Source: Escherichia phage BEU51
Sequence record: OM632672.1
Reading direction: 5' to 3' (one strand)
DNA: 48,949 bases
Positions 34,373 to 35,229 of the stretch are shown here, one piece after another (the stretch's first letter is position 1; each line of letters begins with the position of its first letter). The position numbers were made by a program, and so were the translations under genes. The notes beneath the pieces are model-generated. The model worked only from the letters and a program-made list of their open reading frames with translations. It had not been told where the DNA came from and did not search any database.

Positions 34373-34744
34373 ATGAACCGTATTACTGAAGAACATATTA
34401 ATAGCATCATTGAAGGTGCTTACTACTTCAATATGGCTAAAGCTGTAGAGAATGAAGCAGTTCTGATTCCTGAAGACCATTTAAAAGCATTGAGTACAAC
34501 TACTGTTTGTGCACTGGTTCTTTCTAATGGATTCACTATTACTGGTAAATCTGCCTGTGTTGACCCCAACACCTTCAATGAAGAGTTAGGTAAGAAATAT
34601 GCTTACGAACAGGCCATTGATAAGGTATGGGAATTGGAAGGCTATTTGCTTAAGCAAAACTTGTATGAGAAAGCTCAGAGCCAGGAAATGCTAAAAGGAT
34701 TCCTGCAAGATGACAACTGTGAAGGTGGGGGCTGTAAAATCTAA
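34373..34744 (+). CDS. Gp49-like phage protein (N4 gp49 / Sf6 gp66 family-like)
   Basis: TTTVCALVLSNGFTITGKSACVDPNTFNEELGKKYAYEQAIDKVWELEGY resembles the pattern I associate with that family; AAGGAAG RBS. Confidence 0.4.
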   Translation: MNRITEEHINSIIEGAYYFNMAKAVENEAVLIPEDHLKALSTTTVCALVLSNGFTITGKSACVDPNTFNEELGKKYAYEQAIDKVWELEGYLLKQNLYEKAQSQEMLKGFLQDDNCEGGGCKI

Positions 34745-35229
34745 TGGAAATTAAAGTTCACTTTACTAATTACATCGGAACCAAATGTGTAAATGGTTTC
34801 CCGATGAACAAGGCTGACTACTGCAAACTTCGTGGTTGGGATGTACCTGCTAATGAAGACCCGTTAGAGGAGGGTTACTTAGTAGAGTACCCCGATTCTA
34901 ACCCTAACCATGAGCAATTCCGTGGTTATATTAGTTGGTCACCTAAAGCTGCATTTGAAGAGGCATACTGTGATGTAGACAAAGGCTGCACGTTTGGTCA
35001 CGCAGTAGAGCTTATGAAATCAGGTTTTAGAATGTCCCGTAAAGGCTGGAATGGAAAAGGAATGTATATCACATTGGTATCCGGTGAAAACTGGGCTATG
35101 GATAAACATGAAAATACCATATGCATGAAACAGGATTGGCTGGGTATTAAAACCGCTGACAATGAATTTATGCCATGGGTTCCATCTCAATCAGACGTAT
35201 TAGCAGAAGATTGGGTACTAGCTCAATAA
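34744..35229 (+). CDS. DUF2829-like domain protein (family that includes Thoeris anti-defence Tad2)
   Basis: C-terminal half TFGHAVELMKSGFRMSRKGWNGKGMYI ... MPWVPSQSDVLAEDWVL matches the FG.A...K.G....RKGWNGKG core as I recall it; N-terminal ~80 aa are a separate unassigned region. Confidence 0.45.
   Translation: MEIKVHFTNYIGTKCVNGFPMNKADYCKLRGWDVPANEDPLEEGYLVEYPDSNPNHEQFRGYISWSPKAAFEEAYCDVDKGCTFGHAVELMKSGFRMSRKGWNGKGMYITLVSGENWAMDKHENTICMKQDWLGIKTADNEFMPWVPSQSDVLAEDWVLAQ

What the first reader, a model, noticed from the sequence alone, without database searches (positions are those of the whole stretch)
34373..35229. Gp49-like and DUF2829 (Tad2-family-like) gene pair wedged between the tRNA region and the vRNAP gene
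The two genes form their own unit, bounded by terminators at 34320-34350 and 35236-35262. The second protein ends in a domain with the motif FG.A...K.G....RKGWNGKG followed by WVP, which I recognise as the DUF2829 core; some members of that family (Tad2) sequester Thoeris immune signalling nucleotides. The first protein resembles the N4 gp49 / Sf6 gp66 family. This places a candidate anti-defence or host-interaction cassette at the early/late boundary. The family assignments are from memory of motif patterns, not a search.
Basis: partly seen in the sequence, partly recalled or inferred. Interest (0 to 1): 0.6.

Follow-up and report, generated by a model that had tools for sequence, protein, structure and literature searches.

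The report
Phage N4 immune-signal sponge gene pair
These two small phage genes are near-identical copies of coliphage N4 gp48 and gp49, which belong to two known families of proteins that soak up bacterial immune alarm molecules, so the pair is real but already described; the only new lead is an unnamed extra domain on the second protein.

Summary
Two translationally coupled ORFs (34373-34744 and 34744-35229, TAATG overlap) lie between the tRNA cluster and the convergent vRNAP gene, and strong terminator hairpins flank them. The window is an N4-type Enquatrovirus.

ORF1 is N4 gp48 (96% identity), Pfam PF13876, E=2.8e-34. This family is now known as Acb4, a cyclic-dinucleotide sponge. N4 gp48 has been published as "Acb4 N4", necessary and sufficient to trigger the Panoptes guard system.

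A 2026 preprint already describes the primase-to-vRNAP region of N4-like phages as an anti-signalling hotspot holding Tad2, Acb4 and Sequestin. The cassette is therefore already known.

The unreported part is the N-terminal 81 residues of gp49 ("X"). It has no Pfam or PDB match. It has 1350 representative homologues, and these are fused almost only to sponge domains (Sequestin, Tad2, Acb4, Acb2/Tad1, RyR-Tad). It is either a shared dimerisation module or an unrecognised ligand-binding domain.

The parts
34318..34353 (+). Intrinsic-terminator-like hairpin (12-bp stem, 6-nt loop) plus T-run. It ends the tRNA-region transcript just upstream of the cassette.
   Evidence: scan; dG -18.6 kcal/mol, z -5.1. 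Annotated as a terminator in phage Jura.
34348..34372 (+). 25-nt AT-rich spacer with the ribosome-binding site AAGGAAG (34362-34368). It is the only room for a promoter. A minimal AT-rich N4 RNAPII middle promoter here is an inference; read-through of the hairpin is the alternative.
   Evidence: Sequence. No sigma-70-like + strand site. N4 RNAPII uses a minimal AT-rich -7..+2 promoter in the left 50% of the genome.
34373..34744 (+). gp48 = Acb4(N4), 123 aa, a cyclic-dinucleotide sponge of the Acb4 family (PF13876, dsRBD-like fold).
   Evidence: Pfam E=2.8e-34. phmmer hit to SPO1 Acb4 structure 9E4W, E=7e-4. 96% identical to N4 gp48. N4 gp48 is in Acb4 Table S3 and triggers Panoptes.
34382..34663 (+). 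Acb4 core domain (gp48 residues 4-97).
   Evidence: Pfam envelope 4-97. Residue mapping to SPO1 Acb4 contacts: F54, F68, N69 kept, L72 conservative, six changed.
34664..34741 (+). C-terminal extension of gp48 (residues 98-123) ending in ...DDNCEGGGCKI. It is conserved in long Acb4 homologues and absent from SPO1 Acb4. Function unknown.
   Evidence: 85 of 91 homologues of at least 115 aa end in C.GGGC.., and the other 6 carry two-Cys variants.
34744..35229 (+). gp49, 161 aa, a two-domain protein (X + Tad2-like). Its start codon overlaps the gp48 stop codon (translational coupling).
   Evidence: 158/160 identical to N4 gp49. AF2 model pLDDT 89.8.
34744..34986 (+). X domain (gp49 residues 1-81): a small beta-beta-alpha-beta-beta-alpha module. 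It is not in Pfam or PDB and is homologous to the N-terminal domain of RyR Tad (CB1 gp68).
34990..35220 (+). Tad2-like (DUF2829) domain (gp49 residues 83-159), a predicted sponge for TIR-derived ADP-ribose-type signals.
35238..35262 (.). Bidirectional terminator hairpin (7-bp GC-rich stem) shared by the convergent gp49 and vRNAP genes. The T-run is on the + strand.
   Evidence: Annotated as a terminator in phage Jura.

Best explanation
The pair is a co-translated anti-signalling ('sponge') cassette of an N4-type coliphage. It is the last rightward transcription unit before the late genes.

gp48 (Acb4 N4) most likely assembles into a homotetramer. It sequesters cyclic dinucleotides made by CBASS-type cGAS-like enzymes, so the CBASS effector is never switched on. 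That N4 gp48 acts on cyclic-nucleotide pools in vivo is shown in the literature. Its exact ligand range is inferred.

gp49 carries a Tad2-like domain. By homology it forms a tetramer with pockets at protomer interfaces. It sequesters TIR-produced ADP-ribose-derived signals (gcADPR, His-ADPR or N7-cADPR class) and so blocks Thoeris-type immunity. This is inferred from fold and pocket conservation and was not tested.

The Tad2 domain of gp49 has only a short beta2-beta3 insertion. It therefore probably lacks the second, cyclic-dinucleotide pocket of HgmTad2. That job would fall to gp48, which would explain why the two genes travel together and are fused in other phages.

The N-terminal X domain of gp49 most likely acts as a dimerising clamp that helps even-numbered sponge oligomers assemble. 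This is inferred from the domain-swapped dimer seen in its RyR-Tad homologue and from its fusion to sponge domains.
For: Identity with N4: the region is 96.3% identical at nucleotide level. gp49 is 158/160 identical and gp48 96%.

gp48: PF13876 E=2.8e-34 and a hit to the Acb4 structure 9E4W. Chang et al. equate PF13876 with the Acb4 family; all 8 purified homologues bind 3'3'-cGAMP and are predicted tetramers. N4 gp48 is in their table. Knockdown of Acb4 N4 restores N4 infectivity on Panoptes cells, and its expression alone triggers Panoptes.

Pairing: Acb4 and Tad2 are often fused, and the Pm86 fusion blocks both Thoeris I and CBASS. Related phages have the same position and order: ECBP1 has Acb4, then X-Tad2, then vRNAP; KP8 has Acb4, DUF7279, X-Tad2, Sequestin, then vRNAP. 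The hotspot in N4-like phages is described.

X domain: among the 150 best representatives the partners are Sequestin 54, Tad2 39, Acb4 20 and Acb2/Tad1 hairpin 4. X is homologous to the RyR-Tad N-domain, which forms a domain-swapped dimer.
Against: Within the literature searchable here, I found no experiment on gp49 of N4 or of this phage.

The Tad2 domain is equally similar to a His-ADPR binder (35/78 identical to ModTad2) and a gcADPR binder (36/77 to SPO1 Tad2), so the ligand class is undecided.

Only 3 of 10 SPO1 Acb4 ligand contacts are identical in gp48, and both guanine-reading residues are changed (K36->T42, E49->T55). Its specificity must therefore differ from SPO1 Acb4.

Oligomeric states could not be modelled because only monomer predictions were available.

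A pure 'clamp' role for X does not explain its many near-invariant polar residues (K14, R30, E38, E48, N55, S64, S66).

The promoter is unidentified.
Confidence: 0.8

Rival explanations
1. The X domain is an active anti-defence module in its own right, not just a clamp. It could be a further sponge whose pocket forms at its dimer interface and binds a signal not yet assigned. Alternatively it could be a protein-binding inhibitor of a defence component. gp49 would then be a dual inhibitor, like the Acb4-Tad2 or Acb4-Sequestin fusions.
For: X is fused almost exclusively to sponge domains. This is the same 'guilt by fusion' signal that led to Sequestin. X also occurs alone (7 of 150) and between two sponge domains (for example P0163). 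It is as conserved as the Tad2 domain, with near-invariant charged or polar and aromatic residues (K14, R30, W32, E38, E48, Y49, N55, Y62, S64, W65, S66). It keeps about 50% identity between phages of Clostridium, Vibrio, Pseudomonas and E. coli. The only tested relative, CB1 gp68_N, lacks several of these residues (R30, W32, E48, N55 equivalents), so its negative result may not carry over.
Confidence: 0.3
2. gp49 is an anti-CRISPR of the AcrIIA7 type that inhibits Cas9. Some phage records annotate its homologues as 'anti-CRISPR protein'.
Against: Li et al. could not reproduce any Cas9 inhibition by HgmTad2 or other Tad2 homologues, in vitro or in vivo. Yirmiya et al. argue that DUF2829 proteins are anti-Thoeris rather than anti-CRISPR. 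From general knowledge, E. coli hosts of N4 carry type I, not type II, CRISPR systems.
Confidence: 0.03
3. The pair serves phage physiology rather than immune evasion. For example, it might sponge host second messengers (c-di-GMP, (p)ppGpp-like or ADPR metabolites) to reprogramme the cell. Or it might be an accessory of the adjacent replication/recombination module.
For: It sits at the end of the replication/recombination gene block: primase, AAA_24 protein, SSB, RuvC-like gp46. HgmTad2 binds c-di-GMP at picomolar affinity.
Against: Acb4 homologues avoid c-di-GMP. gp49 lacks the long insertion that forms the CDN pocket in HgmTad2. The Panoptes data tie gp48 to immune-type cyclic nucleotides. 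The locus is variable and filled with other sponges in relatives, which is typical of anti-defence islands.
Confidence: 0.07

Closest known systems
Acb4 (anti-CBASS 4) of Bacillus phage SPO1 (PDB 9E4W), and 'Acb4 N4' = N4 gp48
   Same: Same Pfam family, PF13876, with direct sequence similarity to 9E4W. The stacking and adenine-pocket residues F48, F62 and N63 are kept. ORF1 is 96% identical to N4 gp48, which has published in vivo activity.
   Different: The guanine-reading residues K36 and E49 are replaced by T42 and T55, and four other contacts differ. A conserved 26-residue C-terminal tail ends in CEGGGCKI and is absent from SPO1 Acb4. The ligand range of the N4 protein was not measured in the papers read.
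Tad2 family: SPO1 Tad2 (8SME), ModTad2 (9EIB), HgmTad2/AcrIIA7 (8KBI)
   Different: gp49 has an additional conserved 81-residue N-terminal domain, whereas the characterised Tad2 proteins are single-domain (about 89-104 aa). The ligand class (gcADPR, His-ADPR or N7-cADPR) is unknown. The pocket residue H71 is M143.
Acb4-Tad2 fusion of Pasteurella phage Pm86 and Acb4-Sequestin fusion (Ab09 gp59)
   Same: The same two sponge families are combined to cover CBASS-type and Thoeris-type signals.
   Different: Here the two are separate, translationally coupled genes rather than one polypeptide. The Tad2 gene carries X rather than Acb4 at its N-terminus.
RyR Tad (gp68 of Pectobacterium phage vB_PatP_CB1), N-terminal domain
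   Different: The partner domain is RyR-repeat-like there and Tad2-like here. gp68_N is a divergent copy that lacks several near-invariant X residues.
Anti-signalling hotspot of N4-like phages (primase to vRNAP), bioRxiv 10.64898/2026.06.04.730250
   Same: Same genomic position, and the same inventory is named (Tad2, Acb4, Sequestin, RuvC-like Bes1 orthologues).
   Different: That work tested Pseudomonas and Pectobacterium phage genes. Coliphage gp49 and the X domain as a family are not analysed in the sections read.

Membership tests
Acb4 (PF13876, Phage_gp49_66) | Significant match to the family profile above the curated cut-off | tested here: met
   117.9 bits against a cut-off of 27, E=2.8e-34, covering the full 82-position model.
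Acb4 (PF13876, Phage_gp49_66) | Sequence homology to the solved founding member (SPO1 Acb4, 9E4W) | tested here: met
   phmmer E=6.8e-4 over residues 37-87. No structure model of gp48 was made, so the fold was not compared.
Acb4 (PF13876, Phage_gp49_66) | Conservation of the 3'3'-cGAMP contact residues of SPO1 Acb4 | tested here: inconclusive
   3/10 are identical (F54, F68, N69), 1 is conservative (L72) and 6 are changed, including both guanine-specific residues. Homologues from Gram-negative phages are known to differ in specificity.
Acb4 (PF13876, Phage_gp49_66) | Homotetramer that binds cyclic dinucleotides and blocks CBASS | not testable with these tools
   Literature only: N4 gp48 is necessary and sufficient to trigger Panoptes, and 8/8 purified homologues bind cGAMP.
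Tad2 (PF11195, DUF2829) | Significant match to the family profile above the curated cut-off | tested here: met
   84.2 bits against a cut-off of 25, E=9.1e-24, residues 83-159 matching model positions 2-72 of 73.
Tad2 (PF11195, DUF2829) | Tad2 fold (N-terminal helix plus antiparallel sheet) | tested here: met
Tad2 (PF11195, DUF2829) | gcADPR pocket residues (SPO1 W25, N26, I63, T65, D67, H71, W73, S76, T78, D79) | tested here: met
   8 are identical, T78->S and H71->M. W102, N103, W145, S148 and D151 are near-invariant and D156 and W157 are invariant across 57 homologues.
Tad2 (PF11195, DUF2829) | Homotetramer that sequesters a TIR-derived signal and rescues phage from Thoeris | not testable with these tools
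   Only monomer prediction was available, and no experiment on N4 gp49 was found.
HgmTad2-type dual sponge (second pocket for cyclic dinucleotides) | Long insertion (about 41 residues) between beta2 and the next core strand that forms the CDN pocket | tested here: not met
   The corresponding stretch of gp49 (about residues 113-131) is short, as in SPO1 Tad2, which binds no CDN.
Sequestin (PF21825), considered for the X domain | Match to PF21825; alpha-helical fold of about 60-80 aa | tested here: not met
   X has no Pfam hit at E<=10. Its model is beta-beta-alpha-beta-beta-alpha, not all-helical.
Tad2-domain duplication, considered for the X domain | Profile-profile similarity between X and the Tad2 domain | tested here: not met
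   hhalign probability 0.7%.
RyR-Tad N-terminal domain ('fold of unknown function', CB1 gp68 residues 1-86) | Sequence and structure similarity over the whole domain | tested here: met
   The HMM built from 150 X segments hits gp68 residues 13-82 (32.3 bits), the only other hit among 885 ORFs. Foldseek E=1.1e-4 to the Yersinia phage TG1 RyR-domain homologue.
Tad3-Tad8 (direct binders of ThsB/ThsA), considered for the X domain | Sequence or structure similarity to Tad3-Tad8 | not tested
   The paper that defines them (Cell 2025) is not held. The X profile finds nothing in PDB at E<=10. The authors of the hotspot preprint annotate Tad3 elsewhere yet call gp68_N a fold of unknown function.

The most novel reading that the evidence does not exclude
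The 81-residue N-terminal domain of gp49 (X) is an unrecognised, widespread functional module of phage anti-signalling proteins. It could be a new sponge for an unassigned immune signal, or an inhibitor that binds a defence protein. Its fusion partners would then offer a ready-made catalogue of further undiscovered sponge domains: about 40 of 160 partner segments among the best 150 representatives cluster with none of the four seed domains used (Tad2, Acb4, Sequestin, RyR), and only five Pfam families were found across all 150 proteins.
Probability: 0.3. Interest if true: 0.7.

Novelty: already known. Interest (0 to 1): 0.4.

Why it matters
The cassette itself adds little. It is N4 gp48/gp49 in a close relative of N4, gp48 is already published as Acb4, and the locus has been described as an anti-signalling hotspot.

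What could matter is gp49. It is a model-phage Tad2 homologue whose ligand (gcADPR, His-ADPR or N7-cADPR) has not been tested, and it sits in a genetically tractable coliphage.

Its X domain could matter more. X is missing from Pfam and PDB, yet it is attached to at least five different sponge families in hundreds of phage lineages. If X helps sponges assemble, it explains a recurrent architecture. If it binds something itself, it is a new anti-defence family, and its partners are a search handle for more.

Tried and rejected
- Pfam on X alone at E<=10: nothing. NCBIfam on gp48, gp49, gp46 and gp47: nothing. PHROGs gives only 'unknown function' families.
- X as a diverged Tad2 duplicate: rejected, hhalign probability 0.7%.
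- The first word-indexed homologue search with X alone found only 9 proteins. The exhaustive representative search was needed.
- A sigma-70 promoter for the cassette: none on the + strand. The LUZ7-type hairpin middle promoter was considered, but N4 RNAPII promoters are reported to differ. The promoter is left unresolved.
- Rfam on 32800-35300: only the four tRNAs reach threshold.
- Literature on N4 gp49 or Tad2 in N4: the only paper holding both search terms is on an unrelated rhizobiophage by its title and abstract; I did not read it.
- The Tad3-Tad8 paper could not be read, so X was not compared with those proteins.
- The anti-CRISPR reading was rejected on published negative data.

Full report
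**What is there.** The window is an N4-type coliphage. The 1051 bases around the finding are 100% identical to Escherichia phages BEU5/13/14/42/44 and 96.3% identical to phage N4. Two + strand ORFs occupy 34373..34744 (123 aa) and 34744..35229 (161 aa). The stop codon of the first and the start codon of the second share one base (TAATG), which is the usual sign of translational coupling.

In the N4 record these two genes are gp48 and gp49. The proteins here are 96% and 158/160 identical to them. Upstream lie four tRNA genes (33193-33871). Downstream lies the convergent 3506-aa virion RNA polymerase gene (35264-45784, - strand).

The one at 34318-34347 has a 12-bp stem plus a T-run, dG -18.6 kcal/mol and z -5.1. 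The one at 35238-35255 has dG -15.8 and z -3.9 and works in both directions. Both are annotated as terminators in the related phage Jura.

**First gene.** gp48 matches Pfam PF13876 (Phage_gp49_66) at E=2.8e-34. It is also directly similar to the crystal structure of SPO1 anti-CBASS 4 (Acb4, 9E4W; E=7e-4).

Chang et al. (bioRxiv 10.1101/2024.12.30.630793) showed that PF13876 is the Acb4 family. These are tetrameric sponges for CBASS cyclic dinucleotides, and all eight purified homologues bound 3'3'-cGAMP. Homologues from phages of Gram-negative hosts also bound 3'3'-cAA. N4 gp48 (A0MZD7) is in their list of 1,331 homologues, although N4 was not in their lysate screen.

A Nature 2025 paper (PMC12657230) names N4 gp48 'Acb4 N4'. 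It shows that knocking the gene down restores N4 infectivity on cells carrying the Panoptes guard system, and that expressing it alone triggers Panoptes. The first gene is therefore a published anti-signalling protein.

I mapped the ten SPO1 Acb4 ligand contacts onto gp48.
- The stacking and adenine-pocket residues are kept (F54, F68, N69; L72 is conservative).
- Both guanine-reading residues are changed (K36->T42, E49->T55).
- Four other contacts also differ.
This fits a shifted specificity rather than loss of function.

Yirmiya et al. list ten residues of SPO1 Tad2 as contacting 1''-3' gcADPR or its waters. In gp49:
- eight are identical (W102, N103, I135, T137, D139, W145, S148, D151);
- T78 becomes S150;
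- the water-only contact H71 becomes M143.

The domain is equally close to a His-ADPR binder (ModTad2, 35/78 identical) and a gcADPR binder (SPO1 Tad2, 36/77). Tad2 clades are known to differ in ligand. The class of TIR-derived signal therefore cannot be called from sequence.

The stretch between beta2 and the next core strand is short, as in SPO1 Tad2. gp49 thus lacks the insertion that gives HgmTad2 its separate cyclic-dinucleotide pocket. The anti-CRISPR label carried by some homologues goes back to AcrIIA7, whose Cas9 inhibition could not be reproduced.

**Why the two sit together.** Acb4 and Tad2 are often fused into one protein, and the Pm86 fusion blocks both Thoeris I and CBASS. The same order recurs at the same place in other Enquatrovirinae:
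- ECBP1: tRNAs, Acb4-like gene, X-Tad2 gene, vRNAP.
- KP8: the same, with a DUF7279 ORF, a Sequestin (PF21825) gene and an 82-aa unknown added.

A 2026 preprint (10.64898/2026.06.04.730250) describes the primase-to-vRNAP interval of N4-like phages as an anti-signalling hotspot that holds Tad2, Tad3, Acb4, Sequestin and RuvC-like 'Bes1' orthologues.

Three corrections apply:
- DUF2829 is PF11195, not PF13876.
- The PF13876 protein is N4 gp48, not gp49.
- N4 RNAPII (middle) transcripts cover the left 50% of the genome and late genes run leftward. The pair lies at 48-49% of the N4 map, so it sits at the middle/late boundary rather than the early/late one.

Only 25 AT-rich bases separate the upstream hairpin from the ATG, and there is no sigma-70-like promoter on this strand. 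Either a minimal AT-rich RNAPII promoter sits in that spacer or the unit is made by read-through. This is unresolved.

**The part that is not in the literature: the N-terminal domain of gp49.** Residues 1-81 ('X') carry the motif YIGTK..A.PM...Y...RGW..P..E....GYLVEY.D...N....GYISWSPK..FE.AY. X has no Pfam match even at E<=10. It is as conserved as the Tad2 domain.

An exhaustive phmmer search of 1.84 billion cluster representatives finds 1350 proteins at E<=1e-3 and 629 at E<=1e-10. A tblastn search finds X in 123 phage records, from E. coli, Klebsiella, Vibrio, Pseudomonas, Rhizobium and Clostridium phages among others.

I scanned the best 150 representatives against Pfam. The only other families found were Sequestin (54), Tad2 (39), Acb4 (20), the Acb2/Tad1 hairpin domain (4) and WDGH (1). 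Apart from the single WDGH case, all are nucleotide-signal sponge families. X is usually N-terminal to the partner (110), sometimes internal or C-terminal (33), and occasionally alone (7). Some proteins are Acb4-X-Tad2/Sequestin triples. About 40 partner segments clustered with none of the four seed domains used (Tad2, Acb4, Sequestin, RyR).

An HMM of X does align over the whole N-terminal domain of Pectobacterium phage CB1 gp68, the 'RyR Tad' of the 2026 preprint. The score is 32 bits, E=1e-6 at a database size set to one million, and it is the only other hit among 885 ORFs. Foldseek also matches the Yersinia phage TG1 RyR-domain homologue (E=1e-4, TMq 0.73).

[quoted passage not shown] It found no anti-Thoeris-I activity for that fragment alone. 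In the crystal, the fragment forms a domain-swapped dimer.

**Mechanism I commit to.**
- gp48 sponges cyclic dinucleotides. In vivo activity is shown in the literature; the ligand range is inferred.
- The Tad2 domain of gp49 sponges an ADP-ribose-derived TIR signal. This is inferred from fold and pocket.
- X acts as a dimerising clamp that supports the even-numbered oligomers whose interfaces form the binding pockets. This is inferred from the RyR-Tad structure and from the fact that every partner family is a dimer, tetramer or hexamer.
- The coupled translation gives both sponges at once.

Overall confidence is 0.8 for the sponge-cassette reading and lower for the role of X. The main rival for X (about 0.3, and not exclusive) is that it is itself a ligand- or protein-binding anti-defence module. 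Its many near-invariant polar residues are hard to explain by dimerisation alone. The one tested relative, gp68_N, has lost several of them.

**Verdict.** The finding is real and correctly interpreted. As a cassette it is already known: it is N4 gp48/gp49, Acb4 N4 is published, and the hotspot is described. The value added here has three parts. The first is residue-level support for gp49 as a working Tad2. The second is the inference that it lacks the second (cyclic-dinucleotide) pocket. The third is the recognition of X as a large, unnamed family tied to sponge proteins. Interest is 0.4 overall. The X-domain reading would deserve about 0.7 if it proved to be an active module.

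Noticed in passing
window 34664-34741 (gp48 residues 98-123): N4-type Acb4 proteins carry a conserved C-terminal tail ending ...DDNC(E/D)GGGCK(I/L). 85 of 91 homologues of at least 115 aa match C.GGGC.. at the very end, and the other 6 have two-Cys variants. The roughly 95-aa Acb4 proteins, including SPO1 Acb4, lack it. A metal site or a disulphide are guesses only.
   Followed up: partly
window 34744 (gp48|gp49 junction); L004 (ECBP1) 2992-3983: The two genes have different histories. 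Between Enquatrovirus and Gamaleyavirus, gp49 is 89% identical but the Acb4 gene only 46%. Nucleotide similarity to Gamaleyaviruses begins at query base 498, about window position 34747, just inside the gp49 start. In ECBP1 the genes are 120 nt apart and not overlapping.
   Followed up: partly
window 31847-32404 (N4 gp46, 185 aa): No Pfam or NCBIfam hit, but 315 phage records hold homologues. Many are annotated as RuvC-like Holliday-junction resolvase, and they are 46-48% identical to proteins of Pseudomonas N4-like phages (for example YH6, Pa2) that lie in the same gene block. This is probably the orthologue of Ab09 gp60 'Bes1', reported to help evade both CBASS and Thoeris by an unknown mechanism.
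   Followed up: partly
L005 (Klebsiella phage KP8) 2924-4465: The equivalent cassette is larger: Acb4 (140 aa), DUF7279 (51 aa), X-Tad2, a stand-alone Sequestin (PF21825, 67 aa) and an 82-aa protein with no family, all before the vRNAP gene. DUF7279 and the 82-aa ORF are candidate anti-defence genes by position.
   Followed up: partly
proteins P0130-P0277 (X-domain representatives): About 40 segments fused to X clustered with none of the four seed domains used (Tad2, Acb4, Sequestin, RyR) in an all-against-all BLAST. Only five Pfam families were seen across all 150 proteins. These are candidates for new sponge domains by the fusion logic that found Sequestin.
   Followed up: no
window 34348-34372: Only 25 AT-rich nt lie between the upstream terminator hairpin and the gp48 start codon, and there is no sigma-70-like promoter on the + strand in 33000-36000. 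How the cassette is transcribed is open: a minimal N4 RNAPII promoter or terminator read-through.
   Followed up: partly
window 33443-33794 and 33872-34317: Two non-coding gaps of about 350 and 450 nt flank tRNA-Pro. They have no ORF of 60 aa or more and no Rfam family at threshold. Phage Jura annotates an 'undetermined tRNA' at the position corresponding to about window 33610-33675, so these may be decayed tRNA genes.
   Followed up: no
Pfam PF13876 name; window 34373-35229: Pfam calls PF13876 'N4 Gp49/phage Sf6 gene 66', yet in N4 the matching protein is gp48, and gp49 gives no PF13876 hit. phrog_9467 joins an X-like N-terminus to an Acb4-like C-terminus, and Sf6-like phages (IME10, Kapi1) carry X. 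The name may stem from the X domain shared by N4 gp49 and an X-Acb4 protein of Sf6; this was not checked.
   Followed up: no
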